A stretch of 64,000 bases of DNA from NCBI GenBank assembly GCA_018303365.1, contig JAGVYI010000016.1, positions 15,330-79,329 of the forward strand. Direction: 5' to 3'. Of the stretch, positions 6,209-25,834 are shown piece after piece; position 1 is the first letter of the stretch, and every line of letters starts with the position of its first letter. The stretch comes from Candidatus Woesearchaeota archaeon (lineage in GTDB: Archaea; Nanobdellota; Nanobdellia; SCGC-AAA011-G17; JACPNG01). The translations under genes were made by a program, and so were the position numbers. The notes beneath the pieces are model-generated. The model ran no database searches. It was not told the DNA's origin and was given only the letters and a program-made list of their open reading frames with translations.

Positions 6209-6964
6209 ATGCAAAAAAGAGGACAACTTTACATTATTGCTGCACTTATTTTTAGTGCAGTTCTTTATACCCTTGCTACGCAAGCAAATACCTACAGGCA
6301 AGAAGACTTTGCCGAGGGTTTTGATGACCTTTCGACCAACTATGCTACTGAGAGCGAACGTCTTGTCAATTCACTTTTATATTCTAATCAAGATGTTCTT
6401 TCCGGGTTTACTAATTTTACACTTCTTTTTACCGGCTATACTAAATCGAAGAATCCTTCCTTTGGCTTGATATACATCTTTGAATTTAATGAGACTATTC
6501 AGGTTGGCAATTTTCTTGACCGGCCTATTATTATTGATACCGGTGATGCACAAAGTTATGATTTTCATAATTTGGAGGGGTGTTTTGACCGCGTTTCTGC
6601 TGTTGTGAAGTTTGCTGGTCTTTCTTTTTCCAGCGACGTTGCTGCAGGTGATATCCAGGAGTGCATTCTTACTTTTCCTACCAAGGATCAGATATGGATT
6701 GGAGTTGATGATGCCTGGTATCCTTTCTCTGTTGTTCGCGGCAAACCAACACTTATGATTGTTACCCGCCAAGAAGCCCAAGAACAAAGAAAGGTTTTTA
6801 TAGGCGGTGAAGGATTTGTTCGTAACAACCGTGACCGTCCTGGACTTCGCTCTCATTGCGAACAGTTGTCTTTGACTTCATGTGAGCTTGCAGGCAATAG
6901 GCGTCTTTGCTGTGTCAGGGATGGTGATTGCGTTCCGCAATATAACTGCATGGAAGAGGGGTGA
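6209..6964 (+). CDS. Class-III signal peptide (archaeal type IV pilin-like) protein.
   Basis: N-terminus MQKRGQ followed by about 20 hydrophobic residues (LYIIAALIFSAVLYTLA). It is first in a run of three overlapping pilin-like genes. Confidence 0.5.
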   Translation: MQKRGQLYIIAALIFSAVLYTLATQANTYRQEDFAEGFDDLSTNYATESERLVNSLLYSNQDVLSGFTNFTLLFTGYTKSKNPSFGLIYIFEFNETIQVGNFLDRPIIIDTGDAQSYDFHNLEGCFDRVSAVVKFAGLSFSSDVAAGDIQECILTFPTKDQIWIGVDDAWYPFSVVRGKPTLMIVTRQEAQEQRKVFIGGEGFVRNNRDRPGLRSHCEQLSLTSCELAGNRRLCCVRDGDCVPQYNCMEEG

Positions 6965-7401
6965 TGTTTATCTTGAAAAAAGGTGTCGGTGCTCTTATAG
7001 GATGGGTTCTTCTTCTGGGTTTTGTTATTAGTATTGGCACTATGGTTTTTTTGAGTTTGCGGACTCATACTACTGAGCTTAGCGATCGTACTGTGAATTA
7101 TATATCTGGGCGCCTTGAATGTTCGGAAATCAACATTAACGTTGTTACTGCTCCTTCTTGCTCTTCGTTCTCCGTGACTAACAGGGGTGTTCTTAATATC
7201 GACCAAGTTGCTGTACGAATTTATAACGGCGAGACCCCAGTTGGTCAAACCCAGATATTTGAGAGTGTTATTGCGCCACATGCAACTGTAGATTATACGC
7301 CAGATTCTTCTGGTGAGCGCATAGAGGTTATTCCTATTGTTCTTATTGATAACAAACCATCAGGCTGTCTTGAGCGGAGGATTATCAAGCCATGTGGTTG
7401 A
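6961..7401 (+). CDS. Class-III signal peptide pilin-like protein.
   Basis: MMFILKKGVGALIGWVLLLGFVISIGTMVFL. ATGA overlap with the upstream gene. Confidence 0.5.
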   Translation: MMFILKKGVGALIGWVLLLGFVISIGTMVFLSLRTHTTELSDRTVNYISGRLECSEININVVTAPSCSSFSVTNRGVLNIDQVAVRIYNGETPVGQTQIFESVIAPHATVDYTPDSSGERIEVIPIVLIDNKPSGCLERRIIKPCG

Positions 7402-7862
7402 CTTCCAGGCAGGGTATTTCACCCTTTATTGCGACTGTTCTTCTGATTGGGCTTACAGTTACTGTTGCGCTTACAGTTATTCTTTGGGGTAGGAGTTACA
7501 TCCAAGAGCGCGCTGCTAAAGAAGGGGCTCTTTCTGAGAAGCAACTTACCTGCAAGATGATTTCATTTACTGCTACCCAGTCTTATCAGCAGTCTGGAGA
7601 GGTACACCTTGTGCTTAAAAATAAGGAAGACATTTCTATTGATAAATTTACTTTCCGCATTGAAGGGTCTGCTGCTGAACCAAAAGAGCGATATGATACG
7701 CTTCCTTCCCTTGCTACCAAAGAATATATTCTTTCATTTACTGAGGATGAACTGCAAAATATCGACCAGGTTTTTATTGTTCCTTGGCTTCGCGTTGCTT
7801 CAGGAGTTTATGTTCCCTGTTCTGACCAACATTTAACGGTCAATATTCTTTCGACTTCTTGA
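7392..7862 (+). CDS. Archaeal pilin/flagellin-like protein (DUF361-type N-terminus).
   Basis: RQGISPFIATVLLIGLTVTVA is the canonical archaeal class-III, DUF361-like N-terminus. Confidence 0.6.
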   Translation: MWLTSRQGISPFIATVLLIGLTVTVALTVILWGRSYIQERAAKEGALSEKQLTCKMISFTATQSYQQSGEVHLVLKNKEDISIDKFTFRIEGSAAEPKERYDTLPSLATKEYILSFTEDELQNIDQVFIVPWLRVASGVYVPCSDQHLTVNILSTS

Positions 7863-10217
7863 TTTTTCTTTGTATATTCCAAGTGCATAAAGAATACTTA
7901 TCAAGATGCTTGTTATCAGCAAGTTTGCTGTTGTAAATACCGGGAAGGCTCTTTCCCTTATGCATTCTGCCTGCTCTGCTGGTGTAAATTCAAACCTACA
8001 CAATTCATTTGTCCCCCTATAAACACATTTTGAGATGTCCCTTGTTCTGATGTTTGTTTCCGGGTCACATTCTGACCATTCTGTTGCAGTACAGTCCCAC
8101 TCTGCAAGGCACCTTGTCTGTCCTTTTGAGCACCCTTCGTTGTTGACACCTGTGCACAAGGGCGTTGATGTGCAAAGGTCCTGAAGGTTTGTTACACCGT
8201 CGCAGTCAAAGTCGTCTGTCCCACATGGCCTTACTTCCAGCTTGTTCGCTGATTTTACTTTTCTTTCCCCTACCTTGACATTGAAGTAATATTCAGGGTC
8301 TCCCTGCAAGAATCCATCATCTGTCCAATTAGCAGCCCAGATAGTCCTTGCTGACCTGTTGTCTATTCTTGTTGGTGTTGGAGGTGGAGGGGTTAGGGTA
8401 TCTCCAACAAGATCATCTTCAATCACTTCAAACTGCAGTTCTTTTCCATTGCAGTCTGGTCTTGTTTGTACTGTGATATTTACTTCTTTTCTATCTGCCG
8501 AGCAAGTTGGTTGCCATGATGCTGCTGTGATTGAGCAGCAATCCGGGTCTACACTATTACAGCGAGCATCTGCTGTGCATATTCCATCCGGGAGTGGATT
8601 ACAGCCGCATGCATATGAAGTACATGCGTTTCCTTGAAGACAGCTATCCTGCTGCTGATTACAGTCAGGGCATAAGCAATTTTCCCCTGGCTCACAGCTG
8701 TTTATACCATTACACTGGTAGCAGGTTCCTCCACGCGCCGTGGCGTCTTGCAGACAGGTGTAGCAATTCTCTCCTTGTTGAAGTTGATTGTCTCCGCATG
8801 TTCCACAGGTTTGACCTGTTGCTATAAGATCTTGCGGGCATGTTTGGCATATTTCTCCTTCATCTATTATTCCGTTTCCGCAACTTTGACATACTCCCGG
8901 GGGCATATCTTGGGGGCAAGTACCACAGTTTTCTCCATTAAGATAGTCTGGTTGGTTATTTCCACAGCTTAGGCATGTTTGTCCGGGCATGTCTTGCGGG
9001 CAGTTCCTGCAGTCTTCTCCTGTATCTGGGACACTGTTTCCACAGAAGCTATTTCCAGAGCAGTCTGGGTCAGGGGGTGTACATCCAGCTAAACATCCGT
9101 CTCCTCCCTGGCATGTGAGTGCATCACAGTCTGGGTCTGGTGTTAAGCAGCTTTGTGGTCCACATCCATCTCCCGGAGCACAAGTTGCTGCGCCACCACA
9201 ATCTGGGTCTATTGGATTGCACCCAATTACACAAAAACCATCTTCTCCATTGTCACATACTCTTCCTACACAATCTGGATCTGATGGCAGACAACCTGCC
9301 AGGCACCCATTTCCTACTTGGCAAGTTGTTTGTCCGCAATCTGGGTCTTGCGGGTTACATATGCCGCCTCCACATCCGTCGCCTGGAAGACACGTTCCTC
9401 CGCCGCAATCCGGATCTATTGGGTTGCAACCTACAGCACACGCATCACCTGGTGAACACGTTGCAACAGGAAAGGATGTGCAAACCCATGAGCCTTGGTT
9501 TTGCAGGCAGACCTCTCCATTTCCACACCCCGCATCGTCCGGACAGTTGTTACAATCTTCTCCTGTGTTTATTCTTCCATTCCCACACTCAGTTGTTGGT
9601 CCTTCTTCTGTTACTTCCAACAAGGGTGATTTTCTTAAAATCACTTCTGTTCCATTATCAAGGATGTGTGCGTTGAAATAATATTCTGGGTTGTCTGTTA
9701 TGAATGGGAAGATGCTTTCGTCCTGCCAATCTGCAATCCAAGATGAGCGGGCTTGACCTTCGCTATTAAATGGTGCTGGGAGTGGGTCTGGAGTGTAATC
9801 GTCATCAGGCGTTATTGGGGTGTCTTTTTCAAGGATATCCCACTGTACAATTTTCCCTCTGCAAGCCTGCGAACCCTCTACAGAGAGGAATACACGTTGT
9901 CTGTTTCCCGCTCTTGTTATTTCAATCAGGCTTGTATCTTTCCAGTTTATTGTATTGATACTACAACAGGCGGGATCTCCTTCATCTACTCCGGTAGAAG
10001 GGTCAAGATCAAATCCTCCTTGCGCATTATTGCAGTTATTGTCTATTCTATCTGTACAGTCTTCAACTTGGCCGTAGAAAATTAACGGATCGTTTGGGTT
10101 GCAATCCAAGGGATTGTCTGTTATTGGCTGCTGAAATCCTTGTGGTGATGCTGTTTGCACGACTAATAGAAGAAAACCAAGTATTAGTACTGCAAACACT
10201 CCTTTTTTGATTGGCAT
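7833..10217 (-). CDS. Giant secreted cysteine-rich surface protein with tandem C-x-P-x-DPDC repeats and a C-terminal transmembrane anchor.
   Basis: Signal peptide MPIKKGVFAVLILGFLLLVV. At least 6 tandem ~23-aa repeats (CNPIDPDCGGGTC..GDGC..). About 12% Cys. C-terminal TM helix plus KEKSRSRK tail. Confidence 0.7.
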   Translation of the reverse strand: MPIKKGVFAVLILGFLLLVVQTASPQGFQQPITDNPLDCNPNDPLIFYGQVEDCTDRIDNNCNNAQGGFDLDPSTGVDEGDPACCSINTINWKDTSLIEITRAGNRQRVFLSVEGSQACRGKIVQWDILEKDTPITPDDDYTPDPLPAPFNSEGQARSSWIADWQDESIFPFITDNPEYYFNAHILDNGTEVILRKSPLLEVTEEGPTTECGNGRINTGEDCNNCPDDAGCGNGEVCLQNQGSWVCTSFPVATCSPGDACAVGCNPIDPDCGGGTCLPGDGCGGGICNPQDPDCGQTTCQVGNGCLAGCLPSDPDCVGRVCDNGEDGFCVIGCNPIDPDCGGAATCAPGDGCGPQSCLTPDPDCDALTCQGGDGCLAGCTPPDPDCSGNSFCGNSVPDTGEDCRNCPQDMPGQTCLSCGNNQPDYLNGENCGTCPQDMPPGVCQSCGNGIIDEGEICQTCPQDLIATGQTCGTCGDNQLQQGENCYTCLQDATARGGTCYQCNGINSCEPGENCLCPDCNQQQDSCLQGNACTSYACGCNPLPDGICTADARCNSVDPDCCSITAASWQPTCSADRKEVNITVQTRPDCNGKELQFEVIEDDLVGDTLTPPPPTPTRIDNRSARTIWAANWTDDGFLQGDPEYYFNVKVGERKVKSANKLEVRPCGTDDFDCDGVTNLQDLCTSTPLCTGVNNEGCSKGQTRCLAEWDCTATEWSECDPETNIRTRDISKCVYRGTNELCRFEFTPAEQAECIRERAFPVFTTANLLITSILISILYALGIYKEKSRSRKNIDR

Positions 10218-10266: not shown

Positions 10267-12564
10267 TTAGAATAAGCGACCTACCCAGCTTCCTATGTTA
10301 TCTATCATTCTTTCAATAACATTTCTTCTTTCTATCCCTTCTTCGGTTAACTCCTCTAATGCTTCCCGCCACTTTCCTGTCCTGATGAGCTTTACAACAT
10401 TCTCTTCTTCAAGCCCCTTTCTTTGCTTTACCAACTGTTCACGTTGCGCTAATTCCTCTGGTGGCAGTTCTGTTCCAAGAGCTGGTGCTGGCAAGTCTTC
10501 GCATAGGGGGGCGTCAAAATCAATAAGCCCGTCCCCATCACGGTCACAAATACTTTTTGTTGAGTCACTTGCTTCATTTATAAGACCGTCACAGTCTTCA
10601 TCCCTTCCTATTAGGTCACAGCACTCTGTTCCTACATTTCCTTTTTGTTCATAGTATTCGCACCTATTTGCGCATATTCCGTCTCCATCAAAATCAAACC
10701 ATCCACCACGGCACCCACTGCATTGTCCTTGTTCACATGTGAGGGCATTATTTGCAGCACAACTGTTGCCACATTCTCCACAATTGTTGGGGTCATTTCT
10801 TGCATCAAGTTCACACCCATCAGATAAGTCTCCGTTGCAATTTCTGAATCCTTGGTTACAACTTTCAATTAGACATACCCCAGATTCACACCTTCCCCTT
10901 GCATTTTGAAGATTACAACTGTTCCCTATTGCACCACAGTTACTTACGTCATTGTTTAGGTCTGCACAGGTGCTTGTTTGTGAATTCCACGAACAACTTT
11001 CTCCTGTTGCAACGTTGCATGGGTTTTGCAAGCAAGTTGTTTCATCTTTATAGTCTTGGCAGCTATTTGCATTTTCTTGGCATGCTGTACATAGGTCTGG
11101 TAGAAGAGTTCTTTGTGTGTAAAAGCAATTGCCCCCACATGTATCACAGACTTGTCTTGAGCATGTGCTTAGAAGGCCGCTTCCACATTCTTGACAGGAT
11201 GCGCAGGCACATTCTCCCCTGTTAATACATGCTGGGTTTGATGAACAGGCATCCTGTGTTGCACACCCATCTGAGCCTATTTGGCAACCTGCGGGGGTGT
11301 TCCTACATATATCTTGGCAATCATTTATCCCGTCTTCGTCTGAATCTCCTGCGGGTACAAGACGATATCCTTGGCAGATTCTGTTATCCTGAGTGCATTC
11401 TCCGTGAGTATTACATTCTTTTTCTCCACCACAGGTTCGTCCTTCAAATGTTCTGCTTAGGATACAGCCTGATGGGCACGTACAAATGCTTGGATTTCCT
11501 TTGATGCTTGGGTTTGTACATGTTTCGCCACATGCTGCAACATCTGTTGTCACCACCTGTTGTTGACCTACGCAATCCGGGTCTGGTGTGCTGCACCTTA
11601 ATGCACACCCGTTTCCCGCGGCACATGTTGATATTGACGTACAATCTTGGTCATAGTATGCACAATTTACTCCTAATTCTACCGGGCAAAACCCATCAGT
11701 TGCTCCGCATGCATAACATGTGTTGCAGATTTCTACTGCTTGTCTTGAATTGAGAGTGAAACCAAGTAGTCCGCAGGCGGTTGTTGTTCTTTCTCCTTCA
11801 ACAATTGTCCTTGTAGGCTGGGTTGTTTGCTGCTCTGTTCCTGTTTGCGTGCTTGCAGGAGCACTTGCCCTTATTGTTAGGCTTGTCTGCCCTGTTGCTC
11901 CAGCACTGTCTGTTACTGTAAGCCTGACAGTGTATTGACCTGCACTTTGATAGGTGTGGCTTGGGTTTTGTATCCTAGCTGTTTGTTCGTCTCCAAAATC
12001 CCAATTGTATGTAAGTATTCCTCCGTCTGGGTCTGATGAACCTAAACTATTGAATCGTACTGTTAGAGGAACTGTTCCTGAAAGAGGGTCTGCGTTTGCC
12101 CTTGCAGTTGGAGGATTGTTTAGCGGCTCTTGGGTTGTTCCTGTTTGTTGTGGTGCTGTTACGGTTATTGTGACAGTTTGACTTGCGCTTTCTCCTTTGT
12201 CATCTCTTAATGTAAATGTTGCTGTGTAGATTCCAGGTTGATTATAAGTTTTGGTTGGATTCTGGCTGTTAACTGGCTGAGACCCATCACCATAATCCCA
12301 TGTGGCAACTGTTGGGTCTCCATCTGGATCTGTTCCAGAACCAAAGAACCTTATAGTATGAGGGGCATTTCCTGATGGAGGGTTAGCTTCTATACTTATT
12401 ATTGTAGGTGCTCTGTTTTCTGGTTGTGCTTGCTCCTCTCCTGTCTCTTCAGGTGGTGGTGGGGGGATACCTCCTGGACCGCCGAGCTGAGCATTAGATA
12501 CTCCTATAGGGAGTAAAATAAGAATGATTAGTATTGCAATTAGTCTCTCTGACCTCTTTTTCAT
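10267..12564 (-). CDS. Large secreted protein with two PKD-like domains, Asp-rich Ca-binding (thrombospondin type-3-like) repeats and a Cys-rich region.
   Basis: Signal peptide, then PPPPPEE. PKD signatures WDYGDGS and WDFGDE. DSDEDGINDCQD and DRDGDGLIDFD repeats. It shares a CSTPDPDC motif with the neighbouring protein. Confidence 0.7.
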   Translation of the reverse strand: MKKRSERLIAILIILILLPIGVSNAQLGGPGGIPPPPPEETGEEQAQPENRAPTIISIEANPPSGNAPHTIRFFGSGTDPDGDPTVATWDYGDGSQPVNSQNPTKTYNQPGIYTATFTLRDDKGESASQTVTITVTAPQQTGTTQEPLNNPPTARANADPLSGTVPLTVRFNSLGSSDPDGGILTYNWDFGDEQTARIQNPSHTYQSAGQYTVRLTVTDSAGATGQTSLTIRASAPASTQTGTEQQTTQPTRTIVEGERTTTACGLLGFTLNSRQAVEICNTCYACGATDGFCPVELGVNCAYYDQDCTSISTCAAGNGCALRCSTPDPDCVGQQQVVTTDVAACGETCTNPSIKGNPSICTCPSGCILSRTFEGRTCGGEKECNTHGECTQDNRICQGYRLVPAGDSDEDGINDCQDICRNTPAGCQIGSDGCATQDACSSNPACINRGECACASCQECGSGLLSTCSRQVCDTCGGNCFYTQRTLLPDLCTACQENANSCQDYKDETTCLQNPCNVATGESCSWNSQTSTCADLNNDVSNCGAIGNSCNLQNARGRCESGVCLIESCNQGFRNCNGDLSDGCELDARNDPNNCGECGNSCAANNALTCEQGQCSGCRGGWFDFDGDGICANRCEYYEQKGNVGTECCDLIGRDEDCDGLINEASDSTKSICDRDGDGLIDFDAPLCEDLPAPALGTELPPEELAQREQLVKQRKGLEEENVVKLIRTGKWREALEELTEEGIERRNVIERMIDNIGSWVGRLF

Positions 12565-12647: not shown

Positions 12648-13670
12648 GTGCGTTCTTTTCTTTTTTTGGTCATGGTTAATCAAGAATTAATTAATTATCT
12701 TAAAAATGGGCTTTCACAGGGAAAATCTGTTGACTATCTTCGCTCTGAGCTTACTAAAGCGGGGTGGCCTTCTTCCTTGATTTTTGATGCTGTTCAAGCA
12801 GTTTCAGTACAGAAAACTTCTTTACCAAAACAACCTGCTTTAGAGAAAGGGCCTGAACAACCTTCTGTTCAGAAGCCTTTCGAGAAGACACCTGTTTCTT
12901 CCCCTATTAAAGCTGGATCTTCTTCAGAGGAGTATTTTGGTTATAGTGCTCCTGCTCCAAGTAAATTAAAGCTTTCTTCCAAACACTATATTGCCTTTGG
13001 AGCTGCAGGTATTTCTCTTGTTGTACTTGGAATTGTTTTGTTCTTTGTTTTTGGGCCTGGTGGTGGAGAGCGTGTCCTTACTGTTTCTGAACAATCTGGT
13101 GGTGGTTCAGCTTCAGTTGCTTCTTCTGGAAGTAGTACTACCCCTCTTAGCAATACTTCTTCTCAGAGTATTCCTTCTTCAGGTGACTTTGGCATACCAT
13201 CTAGTCAGGTTAATGCCCTTGGCAGTCAGGGTAGCGCGGTTTGTGAAAATGGGGTTTTAGAGGCTGGAGAGACCTGTGATGGGAATTGTCCGACTAACTG
13301 CACTTCCTCATCTTCCTGCGTTAGTGCTGTCCTTTATGGAAGCGCTCCTTCTTGCACCTCACAATGTGTTCTTGCCAACATAACCTCTTGTGTTTCTGGA
13401 GATGGCTGCTGCCCCTTTGTTTGCAATGGTTTTACTGATTCTGACTGTTCTGGCGGACAGCAAATTAATCAAACGTCAAATCAGAGTTCTGGACAAGGAG
13501 CGTTGCAAAGCTGTTCTTCTCAGGGAGGTAGTGTTTGTCCTTCCGGCCAAAGCTGTTCTGGCAGCATTGTTTCTGCTTCAGATACTTCTTTATGCTGTAT
13601 CGGTACTTGTGAGAGTTCATCTGAAGAAGACTCTGGAGTTGCTCCTCCACCTCCACCCCCTTCAATGTGA
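12648..13670 (+). CDS. Single-pass membrane protein with a Ser-rich linker and a Cys-rich extracellular C-terminal domain.
   Basis: N-terminal soluble domain, TM at YIAFGAAGISLVVLGIVLFFVF, Ser-rich segment, at least 20 Cys in the last 150 aa, and a PPPPPPPS tail. Confidence 0.5.
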   Translation: MRSFLFLVMVNQELINYLKNGLSQGKSVDYLRSELTKAGWPSSLIFDAVQAVSVQKTSLPKQPALEKGPEQPSVQKPFEKTPVSSPIKAGSSSEEYFGYSAPAPSKLKLSSKHYIAFGAAGISLVVLGIVLFFVFGPGGGERVLTVSEQSGGGSASVASSGSSTTPLSNTSSQSIPSSGDFGIPSSQVNALGSQGSAVCENGVLEAGETCDGNCPTNCTSSSSCVSAVLYGSAPSCTSQCVLANITSCVSGDGCCPFVCNGFTDSDCSGGQQINQTSNQSSGQGALQSCSSQGGSVCPSGQSCSGSIVSASDTSLCCIGTCESSSEEDSGVAPPPPPPSM

Positions 13671-17609: not shown

Positions 17610-19232
17610 GTGGAACTTGGTCTTTTTAGTAAAAAGAAAGAGAATCAACCGCAACAACCCCCTTCTTCAGTGCAATCTTCTTCTCAACAAAAACCTGTTT
17701 TTTCTCTTGAAGGTGATAAACCTCCAGCACAGCTTCCAGACTTTACAGATGTCTCAAAGGTTGATGTCCGCTACCCATTGCTTGCACCCTATGCTTTAGT
17801 TCACATTTACTGGGATGCTCCATCTCACGAGCTTGTCTATGAGGTTGAAGAGCCTCAACTCTCTTCTGAAGAAAAAGAAATGCTTTCAACCCTTGAGGAT
17901 GGTATTCGCGAGCTTATCAACATTAGCTTTGTAAACATCAAAGACGAGACGATCATTATTTCTTACCTTGAGAAAAATTTGCAGGTTTTACTCTCTGAGT
18001 TTCACCTACGTATAAAAAAAGAAACTTTCTTGAAGTTTATGTACTATATGTACCGCGACTTTGTCGGCCTTAATGAGATTGAGCCACTTATGCATGATTA
18101 TTATATTGAGGATATTGAATGCAACGGCTCCCAAACGCCCCTTTATATTATTCACCGCAAGTATCAGAATTTGCGAACAAATATTGTTTTTCCTTCAAAC
18201 CAGCCTCTTGCAAGTTTTGTTGAAAAGCTTGCACAGAAAACAGGGAAGTATGTATCATATGCAACGCCCCTTCTTGACGGCAGGCTTCCTGATGGTTCCC
18301 GTGTAAATGCAGTCTATTCCTCTGATGTTTCAAGCAGAGGACCGACTTTTACTATTAGGAAGTTTTCGCGTGAGCCATGGACTCCAATAAAACTTGTTGA
18401 TTTTCGTACTGTTTCTCCCGAGATTCTAGCATATCTTTGGATTCTTATTGAAAACGGTACCAATATCATGGTTGTTGGCGGGACCGGCTCTGGAAAGACT
18501 TCATTTTTGAATGCTATTGCTTTTTTTATTCCGCCTGCTGCCCGTATTGTCTCTATTGAAGATACAAAAGAACTGCAACTTGAGCATGAAAACTGGCTTC
18601 CAAGCATTGCCAGAGAAGGGATTGGTCTTGCTTCGTCCACTGGTCAGAAAAGGGGAGAGGTTACTTTATTCGACCTTCTTCGTGAGAGTTTTCGCCAGCG
18701 TCCTGATTATGTTATTGTTGGAGAGATTCGTGGCAAAGAGGCCTTTGTCCTTATCCAAGGGGCAAGTTCTGGCCATCCTTCTTTTGCAACAATGCATGCG
18801 GAGTCTGTTGAGTCCATGGTCAGGCGTCTAATGACTGAGCCTATTAATTTATCTCCCGCACTTGTTGAATCTATTGATGCTGTCTGCGTTTTAGTTCATG
18901 CAAAGGTTGGCGGCAAAGATGTTCGCCGGATTCGCGATATTTCTGAAATTATCAAGGTTTATCCAGACGGACAGGTGAAAACTAACGTACCCTTTGTCAG
19001 GGATCCACGCAGCGACAAATTTTATTTCCGTACTGGAAGCTATGTCTTTCAAAAGGTTGTTACCCAGCAAGGCATCAACCTGCAGGAGCTGAATCTTGAG
19101 TTTTCACGCAGGGCAAAGCTTCTTTTCAAACTATATGAGCAGAAAATTTTTGGATTTTCCGAAGTTCAGCAAGTTATTCACCAGTACTATAAATCTTCTA
19201 AGGAGGTTCTTTCCAGGTTCGGGATTTCTTAA
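17610..19232 (+). CDS. Type II/IV secretion-family ATPase (FlaI/TadA/PilB-like) of the archaeal pilus system.
   Basis: Walker A VVGGTGSGKTSF, the Asp/His boxes and GEIRG. GTG start, with AGAGGGTGA 5 nt upstream. Confidence 0.8.
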   Translation: MELGLFSKKKENQPQQPPSSVQSSSQQKPVFSLEGDKPPAQLPDFTDVSKVDVRYPLLAPYALVHIYWDAPSHELVYEVEEPQLSSEEKEMLSTLEDGIRELINISFVNIKDETIIISYLEKNLQVLLSEFHLRIKKETFLKFMYYMYRDFVGLNEIEPLMHDYYIEDIECNGSQTPLYIIHRKYQNLRTNIVFPSNQPLASFVEKLAQKTGKYVSYATPLLDGRLPDGSRVNAVYSSDVSSRGPTFTIRKFSREPWTPIKLVDFRTVSPEILAYLWILIENGTNIMVVGGTGSGKTSFLNAIAFFIPPAARIVSIEDTKELQLEHENWLPSIAREGIGLASSTGQKRGEVTLFDLLRESFRQRPDYVIVGEIRGKEAFVLIQGASSGHPSFATMHAESVESMVRRLMTEPINLSPALVESIDAVCVLVHAKVGGKDVRRIRDISEIIKVYPDGQVKTNVPFVRDPRSDKFYFRTGSYVFQKVVTQQGINLQELNLEFSRRAKLLFKLYEQKIFGFSEVQQVIHQYYKSSKEVLSRFGIS

Positions 19233-22888: not shown

Positions 22889-25834
22889 TTGATGTTTAAA
22901 AGAGGTGTAAGCCATATTGACTGGGCTATTAGTATTGGCATCTTTCTTGTCCTTGTCCTCAGCATTGTTGTTTTTTTAAGACCTGGAGTTGAGACTTTTA
23001 CAAGCCATCAGGCGCTTGTGCAAACTGTCGAGTCAAACCTTAGAAGTGAATTTTCCAACGAACTTGAAAAGACTCCAATTTTTATTAATTCCACTGAGCA
23101 GCGTGCTGGAGATTACCAGATTACTTTCACTTTTGATGGTGGGGGCTTTCCATTTGAGGGAGAGAATGAAGAGTTTGTTGTTGTTGACTCTTTGAGCGCT
23201 GTTGTCCCGACTCAAATTTCAGGGGATGGCAGGGACCGTACACTTCGCTTTGACGGGTTTTTAGACCCACGCAAGACAAATGTGTTTTATATTCTCCATG
23301 CAAACGACACAACTTATTTGTCTTCTAATTTGGAGAACACATTTGTTCTTTTTGCTGGCTTAAACTTTTCTTATGACTTTGGAGTTACCAGAATAGAGCG
23401 CGGTTTTGACCTTTCAAGACTTCGTACAATTGAGCAGGATTATGATGCACTTAAAGAAACTTGGGGAATTCCTTCGGACAGAGAGTTTCTTATTCAAATT
23501 GCGCAGACTGACACATTTCGCTATACTTTTGATGACATTATTTTTCGCTATGCCAGACAAGACCCTACTTTTCAATCAGATGTTTTTGTTAAGGAGTTTA
23601 GAGATATTCTTCTTGACCCAAATGGTACGCGCACACCAATTCTTGTGAATATTCAAGCTGGGTTTTTTGGTGAGCCTACAAAGATTATATGCGCTGTTGA
23701 TGAAGATTGTGGGGTTTGCAACAGTTGTGTTAACGGCCAATGTGAAGCAGTCTCTTTTGGCAGTGATCCTCTTAACCAATGCAAAGATGTTGACTGCAGT
23801 GATTATTACTTTGGGTTTGTCGGCGGTGTTTGCTATGGGCGCGCTTCTATCCAGTCTGTTTGCAATGGTGCTGGGGCATGTACACAGGTTTCCGAGGATG
23901 ATTGTCCTGTTTCTGGTCGCGGAGAGTCATCAGGTGTGAGCTGTAGTGAATGCCAGCAAGAGAGCGGGTGCTCTGGGACCACTATGGGTTCTTGCTCTGT
24001 TGCTCTAGATGGTACAGATTGCATGGGGCTGTGCTCGCAGTGTGTTTCAGGTGCGTGCCGCCAGGCACCTTCTGATGATGCCTCGTGCGGCACTATTGAC
24101 TGCGATAACCTTGATGGATATAGCGTTGTTGGAGACAACTCTGCAAGCGGCAGTGCGAGCTGTGTTTTACGGGATTACTCCGACTTAACTTCCAATCGCT
24201 GTGAGGGGCTTCTTGACTGCCGAGATCCAAATACCGCCCCTGATTGTTCTGTTTTTACAGATAGGACTTTAGCTAATTGCGGTGTTTGCCAGCGTGTGCA
24301 AAGCTGTTCTCCTAATGGTGCGACCTGTACCACCTATCCTGCTAATACTCCCTGCGGCCCAGACAGGGTTTGCACTGAGACGGGTCAGTGCGTACGCTCT
24401 CCTCTTGAGATTCGTGGGGTCAAGCGCTTTACTTCCGGCAATTATGAATATGGTTTTGTTCGTATTTATCCTGGCGGGAAAATTATTCTTGATGGAGACA
24501 ATGTTGCTATTACTGTTGATGCATTTTTTGAAAATAACGGTGCTGTTGAGAGCAATACTTTTTCTCCACATCTTACTATTCGCGGCAGAGAGATTACTGG
24601 TTCTGGCCCTTATGCCCTTCAAGGAGGAAGGGGTCGCTATGAATGCGGGTGGAATGATGCTTGCTGGTGGGGAAGCGGAGGAGATTCCTCTCTTGTTTTA
24701 GATGCCAGTGCTGTATCTACAGGGGCTGTTAATGTTCGTTCTGGTTCTGGAGGTCCTGGAGGCAGGGCTTCTGTGATATTCAGGAATGCCCAAAATGGAA
24801 ACGTTGCGTCTTTGAGTGTTATTGGGGCTTCAGGAGCCAATAGCGGCATTAGTTCTTTTGGATGTAGCGGTTATAATGGTGGCAGTGCTGATGTTTCCTT
24901 TGAGTCTAGCTCTTTAAATATTGGGTCTGTTGTTGTTCAAGGAGGAGATGCTTCTTCTCCTGCATGTGTCGGTGAACCTGGGACCGGCGGGAGTGCTACT
25001 TTTCGTGGCAGCGGCAGTGGAGCTTCTATTACCTTTACTTCTTCTTTTAATTTAGAGGGTGGGGATGGCACCAGCGGTTATAGTTCTTATTATAGAACTT
25101 CTGTTTTTGGGCGCGGTGGATCTGCAGAGGTTTCTTTGAGCAATGGCGGAGATGTTTCTTTTCTTGGGCCAGTAAACCTTCAAGGCGGTATCGGCGGTTA
25201 CTCCTCAGGTGCGGGTGTTATGAGCATATCTGCAAACAGACTATCCCAAAAAAGGGAACTTGTTATTGCTGCTGGCCAAGCGCGAAGCGGTGTTTGCCGT
25301 GCTTATACCTGTTGGGATTCTGGGGCAGTGCTTAATTCACAGGGTGGAGAAGCGCGTTTGAGCTTTTCAGGGAATTCTTATACTTCTGAGGGGCCTGTTA
25401 CACTTACTGCTGGGTCTGGGTTTTCTGTCTCTTCTGGAGGCAGCGCCCTTGTTTCCATTCAAGCAACAAACAGCTTTTCTTATACTTCTCCTTTTACTCT
25501 GCGCGCCGGGAACTCTTTTGATGGGTGCCTTAATGGCTATTATGGAGGAAATGCAATTGTTGATATCAATAGTCAGACTATTTCAGGCAGCTCCTCTTTT
25601 ACTACTTATGGTGGTAATGGAGGCCGCGCCTCTGAACCTTACTGGTGTAATGATGCGTGCTATGAACGTGTGGGGGGTAATGGGGGAGATTCTCTTTTGC
25701 GCCTTCGTACCAGTTCAACAGACCCACCCCATAATGGGCAGGGAGGGAGTGTGGGAGGCAATGCCGGAAGTTTTTGTCGTTATAAGCAGTCTTCGCGACC
25801 AACAAATGGGAGGTTTGCAACAGAAAGATATTGA
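22889..25834 (+). CDS. Giant (981 aa) pilin-anchored surface protein: class-III-like N-terminus, a Cys-rich region, and a long Gly/Ser-rich repetitive region that may be beta-helix-like.
   Basis: MMFKRGVSHIDWAISIGIFLVLVLSIVVF. Dense Cys clusters across aa 260-480. Recurrent GG.G/SGS segments in the C-terminal half. Confidence 0.65.
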   Translation: MMFKRGVSHIDWAISIGIFLVLVLSIVVFLRPGVETFTSHQALVQTVESNLRSEFSNELEKTPIFINSTEQRAGDYQITFTFDGGGFPFEGENEEFVVVDSLSAVVPTQISGDGRDRTLRFDGFLDPRKTNVFYILHANDTTYLSSNLENTFVLFAGLNFSYDFGVTRIERGFDLSRLRTIEQDYDALKETWGIPSDREFLIQIAQTDTFRYTFDDIIFRYARQDPTFQSDVFVKEFRDILLDPNGTRTPILVNIQAGFFGEPTKIICAVDEDCGVCNSCVNGQCEAVSFGSDPLNQCKDVDCSDYYFGFVGGVCYGRASIQSVCNGAGACTQVSEDDCPVSGRGESSGVSCSECQQESGCSGTTMGSCSVALDGTDCMGLCSQCVSGACRQAPSDDASCGTIDCDNLDGYSVVGDNSASGSASCVLRDYSDLTSNRCEGLLDCRDPNTAPDCSVFTDRTLANCGVCQRVQSCSPNGATCTTYPANTPCGPDRVCTETGQCVRSPLEIRGVKRFTSGNYEYGFVRIYPGGKIILDGDNVAITVDAFFENNGAVESNTFSPHLTIRGREITGSGPYALQGGRGRYECGWNDACWWGSGGDSSLVLDASAVSTGAVNVRSGSGGPGGRASVIFRNAQNGNVASLSVIGASGANSGISSFGCSGYNGGSADVSFESSSLNIGSVVVQGGDASSPACVGEPGTGGSATFRGSGSGASITFTSSFNLEGGDGTSGYSSYYRTSVFGRGGSAEVSLSNGGDVSFLGPVNLQGGIGGYSSGAGVMSISANRLSQKRELVIAAGQARSGVCRAYTCWDSGAVLNSQGGEARLSFSGNSYTSEGPVTLTAGSGFSVSSGGSALVSIQATNSFSYTSPFTLRAGNSFDGCLNGYYGGNAIVDINSQTISGSSSFTTYGGNGGRASEPYWCNDACYERVGGNGGDSLLRLRTSSTDPPHNGQGGSVGGNAGSFCRYKQSSRPTNGRFATERY

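What the first reader, a model, noticed from the sequence alone, without database searches (positions are those of the whole stretch)
9020..9480. Novel tandem C-x-P-x-DPDC-x3-4-C-x2-G-D/N-G-C repeats in a 794-aa secreted protein
The middle of the 7833..10217 protein consists of at least 6 head-to-tail ~23-residue units: CNPIDPDCGGGTC / CNPQDPDCGQTTC / CLPSDPDCVGRVC / CNPIDPDCGGAATC / CLTPDPDCDALTC / CTPPDPDCSGNSFC. Each is followed by a short GDGC / GNGC segment. The same CSTPDPDC unit recurs in the neighbouring PKD protein at aa ~325. I do not recognise this as EGF, TSP3, dockerin or any named Cys-repeat. It looks like a small disulfide-knotted module, possibly Ca-binding through DPD.
Basis: seen in the sequence. 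Interest (0 to 1): 0.7.

Follow-up and report, generated by a model that had tools for sequence, protein, structure and literature searches.

The report
Uncatalogued four-cysteine DPDC repeat module
The middle of a membrane-anchored surface protein of a tiny groundwater archaeon holds six copies of an 18-residue, four-cysteine "DPDC" module that no tested domain library describes, and the same module also occurs in surface proteins and secreted enzymes of myxobacteria and other ultra-small microbes, probably as a stiff spacer.

Summary
The ORF at 7833..10217 (-) encodes a 794-aa protein that is 9.8% Cys. Six head-to-tail units lie at 9060..9458. The consensus is C-x2-G-[DN]-G-C-x3-C-x-P-x-D-P-D-C, followed by a 3-4 residue linker. 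A seventh, solitary unit lies at aa 539-560. Single units occur in two neighbouring genes.

Chance expects 0.06 DPDC motifs; 7 are seen. The units use different codons, so conservation is at protein level.

Nothing known matched the units:
- No Pfam-A or NCBIfam model covers them, in this protein or in more than 20 others.
- Profile searches of PDB sequences found nothing significant.

It occurs in DPANN archaea, CPR bacteria, Planctomycetota and above all Myxococcota. Its hosts are S1 proteases, M64 peptidases, a PhoD phosphatase (44 units), pilins and giant adhesin-like proteins. Tandem arrays are rare: 34 clusters among 1.84 billion representatives.

Best reading: a disulfide-stapled mini-module used as a semi-rigid extracellular spacer of variable copy number. 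Calcium binding through the invariant Asp residues is plausible but untested.

I rate it a new variant of a known kind (small Cys-rich tandem repeats), of moderate interest.

The parts
7833..10217 (-). Gene for the 794-aa Cys-rich, type-I membrane-anchored surface protein that hosts the repeat
   Evidence: ORF and translation. The exact protein is called on 14 metagenome contigs. Homologues occur in Woesearchaeota and Nanoarchaeia.
10146..10217 (-). N-terminal signal peptide (aa 1-24, MPIKKGVFAVLILGFLLLVVQTAS)
   Evidence: Read from the sequence. AlphaFold helix at aa 5-22.
9603..9968 (-). Ig-like beta-sandwich 'A domain', copy 1 (aa 84-205)
9060..9458 (-). Array of six DPDC modules (aa 254-386). 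Units lie at 9405-9458, 9336-9392, 9270-9323, 9198-9257, 9126-9182 and 9060-9113.
   Evidence: AlphaFold model with pLDDT 53-80, almost no secondary structure and a single helical turn at P-D-C in about half of the units.
8718..9044 (-). Four CGN(G/N/S)-x4-7-GE(D)-x-C-x2-C-P-x-D repeats of about 28 aa (aa 392-500). A fifth copy lies at aa 211-237 (window 9507-9587).
   Evidence: Regex on the translation. Related 'cysteine-rich repeat' proteins with PF13948 are among the homologues. No Pfam hit in this protein itself.
8538..8603 (-). Seventh, solitary DPDC-type module (CNPLPDGICTADARCNSVDPDC, aa 539-560) immediately before A domain copy 2
   Evidence: The equivalent ...DPDCC junction is conserved in P0001, P0003 and P0004.
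8223..8540 (-). Ig-like beta-sandwich 'A domain', copy 2 (aa 560-665)
7872..7946 (-). C-terminal transmembrane helix (aa 758-782), followed by a short basic tail (KEKSRSRKNIDR)
   Evidence: Read from the sequence. AlphaFold helix at aa 763-793. The same feature is conserved in P0001-P0004.
11572..11625 (-). Single DPDC module (CAAGNGCALRCSTPDPDC) in the neighbouring 765-aa PKD-domain protein (10267..12564)
13389..13448 (+). Variant module (CVSGDGCCPFVCNGFTDSDC) in the neighbouring 340-aa Cys/Ser-rich protein (12648..13670)

Best explanation
The six repeats are copies of a small, autonomous extracellular module. The core is about 18 residues, C1-x2-[G]D/N-G-C2-x3-C3-x-P-x-D-P-D-C4, followed by a 2-7 residue linker.

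The module has no room for a hydrophobic core. It is most likely held together by two intramolecular disulfides and by turn-forming Gly, Pro and Asp residues. I infer the pairing C1-C3 and C2-C4.

Strung head to tail, the modules would form a protease-resistant, semi-rigid spacer. In this protein the spacer separates two Ig-like domains of a membrane-anchored, adhesin-like surface protein of a DPANN archaeon. In other organisms the same module spaces catalytic or adhesive domains from a membrane or cell-surface anchor.

A C2-C4 disulfide would bring the three near-invariant acidic positions together: the D/N of GDG and the two Asp of DPDC. These could bind Ca2+ and stiffen the unit, as calcium does in cbEGF arrays. 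Alternatively they could simply cap the one-turn helix at P-D-C.

Shown: the existence of the module, its conservation, its distribution, its extracytoplasmic context and the absence of library matches. Inferred: the disulfides, their pairing, the stalk role and Ca binding.
For: Reality and conservation:
- The statistics (see the observation check).
- The same unit is found in P0006, P0007, P0009 and P0010 at E 1e-16 to 1e-26.
- 332 of 334 distinct HMM-detected units keep all four Cys.
- In the 25 aligned double units both Asp of D-x-D-C are invariant. In 319 canonical units, where those Asp were fixed by the selecting pattern, G10 is 54%, P13 55% and P16 79%.
- A DNA pattern that specified only C-x5-C-x3-C-x-P-x-DPDC retrieved peptides of which 98 of 114 (genomes) and 64 of 79 (metagenomes) also carry the unspecified DG/GD.

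Autonomy: solitary units with all four Cys occur in the PKD neighbour, in pilin-like proteins (P0049, L016) and after S1 protease domains.

Extracytoplasmic context, which favours disulfides:
- Signal peptide and C-terminal TM helix in this protein.
- Myxobacterial hosts are Trypsin-domain proteins, some with sub-threshold MYXO-CTERM matches.
- Other hosts are M64 peptidases, a PhoD phosphatase, a T4SS pilin and TSP3/PKD/Ig-bearing giant proteins.
- In the window, the neighbours are pilin-like genes and a T2SSE ATPase.

Spacer role:
- Copy number runs from 1 to 44.
- The array sits between globular domains or between a domain and an anchor.
- The closest full-length relatives P0001-P0004 keep the Ig-like domains and the C-terminus but have no array. 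P0002 has a different Cys-rich filler at the same place.
- AlphaFold gives no regular secondary structure and a low pTM of 0.29 with a local pLDDT of 60-80. That fits a string of beads.
- The TraA literature proposes the same 'rigid stalk' role for another myxobacterial Cys-rich tandem repeat (PMC3325183).

Pairing hint: a degenerate unit in P0032 (TCGAGDGIVWGCEELIGRSMDPDIQG) lacks C2 and C4 together.
Against: - No coordinates were available, so neither the disulfides nor their pairing could be read from the model.
- The model is only moderately confident (mean pLDDT 68).
- The co-loss evidence for C1-C3/C2-C4 is a single case. Two units lack only C3.
- DPANN hosts live in anoxic groundwater, and I did not establish any machinery for oxidising extracellular Cys.
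- Invariance of the Asp residues equal to that of the Cys is more than a passive spacer needs. It hints at a specific ligand (metal or other).
- In the M64 peptidases the units are inserted inside the catalytic domain region, which is not a classic stalk position.
Confidence: 0.55

Rival explanations
1. The module is a ligand-binding or adhesive unit rather than a spacer. The invariant acidic cluster with Gly/Pro would bind a cation-bridged partner, such as a host-cell surface glycan, a mineral surface or another protein, and tandem copies would give avidity. For an episymbiotic DPANN cell this would serve attachment to its host.
For: The Asp residues are as invariant as the Cys. The hosts are adhesin-like (Ig-like, PKD, TSP3 and pilin contexts). 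Units occur at the exposed C-terminal part of pilin-like proteins (P0048, P0049, L016).
Against: The same module sits behind unrelated enzymes (S1 protease, PhoD, M64) and in widely different copy numbers. The variable positions show no conserved surface patch. Close homologues of this protein do without the array.
Confidence: 0.2
2. The four Cys of each unit stay reduced and coordinate a metal (Zn2+, Fe or another thiophilic ion), as in zinc knuckles or metallothionein-like repeats. The array would then be a metal-binding or redox-active element in anoxic habitats.
For: There are four invariant Cys in 18 residues with Asp nearby. The DPANN and CPR hosts come from anoxic groundwater metagenomes.
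Against: Most occurrences are in secreted or surface proteins of Myxococcota, which from general knowledge are mostly aerobic. Exported Cys-rich repeats there are expected to be oxidised, as argued for TraA in PMC3325183. The spacing C-x5-C-x3-C-x6-C matches none of the zinc-finger or ferredoxin models in Pfam.
Confidence: 0.07
3. The repeat is only a divergent form of an already named family, so nothing is new. Candidates are the Myxococcus/DUF4215 cysteine-rich repeat (TIGR02232/PF13948), the TraA repeat (TIGR04201), Dicty_CTDC, or an entry in an InterPro member database that I could not search.
For: The half-motif GDGC-x3-C is shared with DUF4215-type repeats present in homologues of this same protein. 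Both repeat types co-occur in the same lineages and proteins.
Against: No hit to PF13948, TIGR02232, TIGR04201 or PF00526 on any DPDC unit, in more than 20 proteins scanned with cut-offs between E 0.01 and 10. The profile-profile comparison aligns only 10 columns at 27% probability. The defining second half (C-x-P-x-DPDC) has no counterpart in those repeats.
Confidence: 0.15

Closest known systems
Calcium-binding EGF-like domains (cbEGF, PF07645) in tandem arrays such as fibrillin (from general knowledge)
   Same: A small disulfide-only module without a hydrophobic core. It occurs in head-to-tail arrays in extracellular proteins and has a conserved acidic motif next to a Cys (D-x-D/N-E-C versus D-P-D-C). 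In cbEGF that motif binds Ca2+ and stiffens the array. The proposed rod or spacer role is the same.
   Different: cbEGF has about 40 residues and six Cys in a 1-3, 2-4, 5-6 pattern, with a beta-hairpin core. The DPDC unit has 18 residues and four Cys, its acidic motif is at the C-terminal end, and there is no Pfam match. Ca binding is not shown here.
Myxococcus cysteine-rich repeat / DUF4215 (TIGR02232, PF13948): CGNG-x4-GE-x-CDDGN-x3-GDGC-x3-C
   Same: Found in the same lineages and even the same proteins. Shares the GDGC-x3-C half-motif. Has four Cys per roughly 30-aa unit, is extracellular and tandem.
   Different: The first half (CGNG...GE.CDDGN) is absent from the DPDC unit, and the C-x-P-x-DPDC second half is absent from DUF4215. 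hhalign aligns only 10 columns at 27% probability. There are no PF13948 or TIGR02232 hits on DPDC arrays.
TraA-type Myxococcales Cys-rich repeat (TIGR04201), proposed rigid stalk of the TraA receptor (PMC3325183)
   Same: A Cys-rich tandem repeat between an N-terminal functional domain and a MYXO-CTERM anchor in myxobacterial surface proteins. The proposed role as a rigid stalk is the same.
   Different: It is described with three invariant and two semi-conserved Cys, against four invariant Cys here. NCBIfam scans gave no TIGR04201 hit on any DPDC-bearing protein.
Thrombospondin type 3 / bacterial TSP3 repeats (PF02412, PF18884)
   Same: Asp-rich and extracellular. They co-occur in the same giant DPANN proteins.
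   Different: TSP3 is a D-x-D-x-D-G-x-x-D calcium loop with few or no Cys. In P0006, P0019, P0021 and P0042 the TSP3 hits lie C-terminal to the DPDC arrays, not on them.

Membership tests
cbEGF / EGF-like (PF07645, PF00008) | Profile match; six Cys per roughly 40-aa unit | tested here: not met
   No Pfam hit at E<=1 on the whole protein or at E<=10 on the repeat region and four other array proteins. The units have four Cys in 18 aa.
cbEGF / EGF-like (PF07645, PF00008) | Ca2+ bound by the D-x-D/N-E-C motif | not testable with these tools
   There was no metal-aware structure prediction and no experiment. Only the invariance of D-P-D-C is shown.
Thrombospondin type 3 repeat (PF02412 / PF18884) | Profile match to the D-x-D-x-D-G-x-x-D loop | tested here: not met
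   No hit on the window protein. In P0006, P0019, P0021 and P0042 the TSP3_bac hits lie outside the arrays.
Dockerin (PF00404) | Profile match; paired EF-hand-like loops without Cys | tested here: not met
   No hit on the units. The only dockerin hit is at aa 45-96 of P0010, far from its DPDC units.
LDL-receptor class A (PF00057) | Profile match; six Cys and a C-terminal D-C-x-D-G-S-D-E calcium cage | tested here: not met
   No hit in any Pfam scan.
Myxococcus cysteine-rich repeat / DUF4215 (TIGR02232, PF13948) | Profile match over the whole unit (CGNG...GE.CDDGN...GDGC...C) | tested here: not met
   No PF13948 or TIGR02232 hit on DPDC arrays. hhalign of the DPDC profile against 20 DUF4215-like units gives 10 aligned columns at 27% probability.
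TraA-type Myxococcales Cys-rich repeat (TIGR04201) | Profile match in NCBIfam | tested here: not met
   No TIGR04201 hit at E<=10 in the window protein, P0006, P0007, P0019, P0022, P0027, P0034, P0039, P0045, P0047, P0050 or the L003 protease. HMMER's filters may hide very weak matches.
Dictyostelium CTDC repeat (PF00526) | Profile match to the 24-aa C-x-D-x-x-x-C-T-x-D-x-C repeat | tested here: not met
   The only hit is at P0037 aa 963-984, outside its DPDC units.
Any solved fold (PDB) | Sequence-profile or structural similarity to a deposited chain | tested here: not met
   [not shown]
Other InterPro member databases (SMART, PROSITE, CDD, PANTHER) and AlphaFold DB clusters | Any entry covering the unit | not testable with these tools
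The afdb50 library was unavailable.

The most novel reading that the evidence does not exclude
The DPDC unit is a previously undescribed mini-fold: two disulfides plus a three-carboxylate Ca2+ site formed when the C2-C4 bond brings GDG next to DPD. It would act as a prokaryotic counterpart of cbEGF, building calcium-stiffened rods. It would have been exchanged horizontally between Myxococcota, CPR bacteria and DPANN archaea as a portable 'stalk cassette' for surface proteins, pilins and secreted enzymes.
Probability: 0.2. Interest if true: 0.6.

Novelty: new variant of a known kind. Interest (0 to 1): 0.38.

Why it matters
DPANN archaea and CPR bacteria depend on contact with host cells. Their large Cys-rich surface proteins are mostly unannotated. 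A defined, searchable module with a clear consensus would annotate part of that 'dark' surface proteome. The same module sits behind myxobacterial S1 proteases.

The cross-domain distribution gives a marker for horizontal exchange of surface-protein building blocks. If the unit proves to be a very small, rigid, possibly calcium-stabilised rod element, it could also be useful as an engineered spacer.

It does not open a new biological principle. Short disulfide-rich tandem repeats acting as stalks are a familiar theme.

Tried and rejected
- **The search for homologous proteins with repeat-only queries.** The 145-aa region and alignment A4 both returned nothing. Local HMMER with the same database size gives E 1e-26 to 1e-79 for proteins known to be in that database. 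These are false negatives of the word prefilter, not evidence of absence.
- **The search for related loci with the unit alignment.** It failed for lack of a conserved 7-10 column stretch. I replaced it with a back-translated DNA pattern.
- **First MSA for AlphaFold (A2).** It was useless because overlapping windows aligned to each other.
- **Disulfide pairing from co-loss of Cys.** Nearly every unit keeps all four Cys, so this failed.
- **Literature.** Searches for 'DPDC' with cysteine-rich, repeat, disulfide or archaea found nothing relevant.
- **Readings rejected.**
  - A DNA-level tandem duplication or assembly artefact: no TRF hit and different codons.
  - The + strand ORFs 8989..9681 and 9119..9676 as genes: they are antisense shadows of the repeat, while the minus-strand protein is conserved and is called on 14 contigs.
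  - EGF, TSP3, dockerin, LDLa, DUF4215, TIGR04201 and Dicty_CTDC membership (see the membership table).
  - A viral origin: the one viral-contig match, CYHCPECYYGCKPCDPDC, lacks the DG and looks like chance.
Full report
**1. What is in the window**

The minus-strand ORF 7833..10217 encodes a 794-aa protein with 78 Cys, 9.8% of residues. DPDC occurs at aa 268, 291, 313, 337, 361 and 383, and once more at aa 557.

The natural unit is set by the solitary copies found elsewhere. It runs from the Cys before G-D/N-G to the Cys of DPDC:
- CSPGDACAVGCNPIDPDC
- CLPGDGCGGGICNPQDPDC
- CQVGNGCLAGCLPSDPDC
- CDNGEDGFCVIGCNPIDPDC
- CAPGDGCGPQSCLTPDPDC
- CQGGDGCLAGCTPPDPDC

These lie at window 9405-9458 down to 9060-9113 and are joined by 3-4 residue linkers.

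From the protein's composition 0.056 DPDC are expected and 7 are seen. None of 100,000 shuffles of aa 246-400 gave 6 or more; the maximum was 2. Tandem Repeats Finder sees no DNA repeat, and the invariant DPDC is written with different codons in each unit. The repeat is therefore old and is maintained at protein level.

The + strand ORFs overlapping the region (8989..9681 and 9119..9676) are antisense shadows. The minus-strand protein is the one conserved in other organisms, and this exact sequence is called on 14 metagenome contigs.

**2. The host protein**

- a signal peptide (aa 1-24);
- a Cys-rich N-terminal stretch;
- an all-beta domain at about aa 84-205;
- one CGNG...GEDC..CP.D repeat;
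- the six DPDC units (aa 254-386);
- four more CGN-type repeats (aa 392-500);
- a Cys-rich stretch ending in a seventh DPDC-type unit (aa 539-560);
- a second copy of the beta domain at aa 560-665 (pLDDT above 90; BLASTP E 2e-13 against the first copy);
- a short D-x-D-C-D-G / Cys-rich region;
- a TM helix (aa 758-782) and a basic tail.

Its neighbours fit a cell-surface locus:
- a PKD-domain Cys-rich protein with one DPDC unit (10267..12564);
- a Cys/Ser-rich protein with a variant unit (12648..13670);
- three small pilin-like ORFs (6209..7862);
- further on, a T2SSE/PilB-type ATPase (17610..19232).

**3. Is the repeat a known family?**

Neither Pfam-A nor NCBIfam reports any family for the 794-aa protein at E<=1, nor Pfam for the isolated repeat region at E<=10.

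I then scanned more than 20 other proteins that carry the unit. They include a 385-aa stretch made of nothing else and myxobacterial proteases with up to ten units. In none does a model cover the units. The hits are to Trypsin, Peptidase_M64, PKD, Big_13, TSP3_bac, T4SS_pilin, PhoD and MYXO-CTERM, all elsewhere in the proteins.

The named families I considered are EGF/cbEGF, TSP3, dockerin, LDLa, DUF4215/TIGR02232, the TraA repeat TIGR04201 and Dicty_CTDC. All fail the profile test. A profile-profile comparison with 20 DUF4215-like units taken from homologues of this very protein aligns only the half-motif GDGC-x3-C, 10 columns at 27% probability.

PDB sequences give nothing significant with the protein or with two profiles.

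SMART, PROSITE, CDD, PANTHER and the AlphaFold DB could not be searched.

**4. The module elsewhere**

The whole-protein search found the same units in four DPANN proteins. These are P0006 (12 units) and the M64 peptidases P0007, P0009 and P0010. Local phmmer with the repeat alone gives E 1e-16 to 1e-26.

I searched a 43-position profile of 25 double units against 1.84 billion cluster representatives. It found only 34 proteins at E<=1e-3, 16 at E<=1e-10 and 6 at E<=1e-30. Tandem arrays are rare.

Their hosts are:
- giant DPANN-type surface proteins with a C-terminal TM helix and a Lys-rich tail (P0019-21, 23, 26, 28, 31, 40, 46);
- M64 peptidases (P0024, 25, 41);
- Myxococcota S1 peptidases, some with sub-threshold MYXO-CTERM matches (P0027, 34, 39, 45, 47, 50);
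- a PhoD-type phosphatase with 44 units (P0022);
- a CPR T4SS pilin (P0048);
- an archaeal pilin-like protein (P0049).

A back-translated DNA pattern that fixes only C-x5-C-x3-C-x-P-x-DPDC found three sets of matches:
- 89 stretches in one genome per species of GTDB;
- 79 stretches in the metagenome collection;
- 1 stretch, apparently chance, in viral contigs.

These lists may be capped. By my count of the 80 listed genome records:
- about 50 are Myxococcota or 'Deltaproteobacteria';
- 12 are DPANN;
- 5 are MAGs labelled Methanosarcinales that carry DPANN-like giant proteins;
- 4 are Planctomycetota;
- 2 are CPR;
- a few look like chance, with stop codons nearby or no DG.

The unspecified positions are strongly conserved. 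DG or GD lies between C1 and C2 in 98 of 114 and 64 of 79 distinct peptides, and Gly precedes C3 in 53-59%. The matches are therefore mostly true relatives.

From 319 canonical units the logo is C1-x-x-[D/G]-[G/D]-x-C2-x-x-G-C3-x-P-x-D-P-D-C4, with linkers of 2-7 residues. DPANN units favour x-G-D-G-C and myxobacterial units favour x-D-G-x-C. Of 334 distinct HMM-detected units, 332 keep all four Cys.

**5. How it most likely works**

Every context is extracytoplasmic. The unit is too small for a hydrophobic core, and its four Cys are practically invariant. Solitary units carry all four Cys, so the disulfides should be internal to the unit.

One degenerate unit in P0032 has lost C2 and C4 together while keeping C1 and C3. 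This hints at C1-C3 and C2-C4 pairing, but it is a single case.

Several observations argue for a modular, semi-rigid spacer:
- Copy number runs from 1 to 44.
- The arrays sit between globular domains, or between a domain and an anchor.
- The closest full-length relatives P0001-P0004 keep both Ig-like domains, the ...DPDCC junction and the C-terminus, but have no array. P0002 fills the same gap with an unrelated Cys-rich segment.

The same role was proposed for the Cys-rich tandem repeats of the myxobacterial receptor TraA (PMC3325183).

The two Asp of DPDC, and the D/N of GDG, are almost as conserved as the Cys. A C2-C4 bond would place them side by side. They may bind Ca2+, as in cbEGF arrays, or they may merely cap the single helical turn (Asp N-cap followed by Pro). 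I could not test this.

Rivals are an adhesive or ligand-binding role, metal coordination by reduced thiols, and divergent membership of a named family absent from my libraries. They are listed with their evidence in the rival explanations.

**6. Novelty and verdict**

The repeat is a small Cys module unknown to the libraries tested. The knot topology and calcium binding remain conjecture. The module is not DPANN-specific: it is shared with Myxococcota, CPR bacteria and Planctomycetota.

I class it as a new variant of a known kind, the short disulfide-rich tandem repeat of surface proteins. It is worth a family definition and a structure, but it is not a new principle.

Interest 0.38. Confidence in the spacer explanation 0.55.

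Noticed in passing
window 6209..7862 (+) and 17610..19232 (+): Three small ORFs (251, 146 and 156 aa) have a short basic leader followed by a hydrophobic helix (for example MWLTSRQGISPFIATVLLIGLTV). They look like archaeal type IV pilins but have no Pfam hit. A T2SSE/PilB-type ATPase (PF00437, E 2e-34) lies 7 kb further on. The Cys-rich proteins therefore sit in a pilus or surface-structure neighbourhood.
   Followed up: partly
[not shown]
   Followed up: partly
window 8718..9044 and 9507..9587 (-): Five repeats of about 28 aa, CGN(G/N/S)-x4-7-GE(D)-x-C-x2-C-P-x-D, flank the DPDC array. They resemble DUF4215-type repeats but get no Pfam hit here, and AlphaFold confidence is below 35.
   Followed up: no
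P0019, P0020, P0026, P0028, P0031 (for example P0019 aa 775-800): Giant DPANN surface proteins alternate DPDC arrays with another unannotated Cys module: C-x-[DN]-G-x-[KR]-[ND]-[GQ]-[DE]-E-[TS]-[DG]-[VI]-D-C-G-G-x-C-x2-C, followed by a roughly 30-aa Cys-rich segment.
   Followed up: no
P0007, P0009, P0010, P0024, P0025, P0041: In archaeal Peptidase_M64 (IgA-peptidase-like) proteins, 3-7 DPDC units lie between the HExxH region and the C-terminal conserved part of the catalytic domain. This is an insertion rather than a terminal stalk.
   Followed up: no
L063 / P0022 (Deltaproteobacteria MAG M1802), aa about 900-1859: A GDSL/PhoD-type phosphatase carries 44 units in two alternating sub-types (C-x-PDGFC-x3-CG-x2-DPDC and C-x-PGDG-x-C-x-PGCE-x-xDPDC). 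This is the largest array seen. L059, labelled Enterobacteriaceae, holds a homologous protein and is probably mis-binned.
   Followed up: no
L024, L029, L055, L057, L062: MAGs labelled 'uncultured Methanosarcinales archaeon' encode giant DPANN-style Cys-rich surface proteins with DPDC arrays. The taxonomic label may be a binning error, or it may point to transfer between a DPANN symbiont and its host.
   Followed up: no
window 22889..25834 (+): A 981-aa ORF with 4.3% Cys and a locally raised G+C content (0.47 against about 0.40) has no Pfam hit. It may be another surface protein.
   Followed up: no
window 8989..9681 and 9119..9676 (+): Long antisense ORFs (230 and 185 aa, rich in Pro/Ser/Gly/His) run opposite the repeat region. 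They are a by-product of its codon composition and could be miscalled as genes.
   Followed up: yes
tool behaviour, versus 14 and 67: The word-indexed protein search returns nothing for Cys-rich repeat queries. Local HMMER with the same database size scores its own database members at E 1e-26 to 1e-79. Negative results from that tool for low-complexity or repeat queries should not be trusted.
   Followed up: yes
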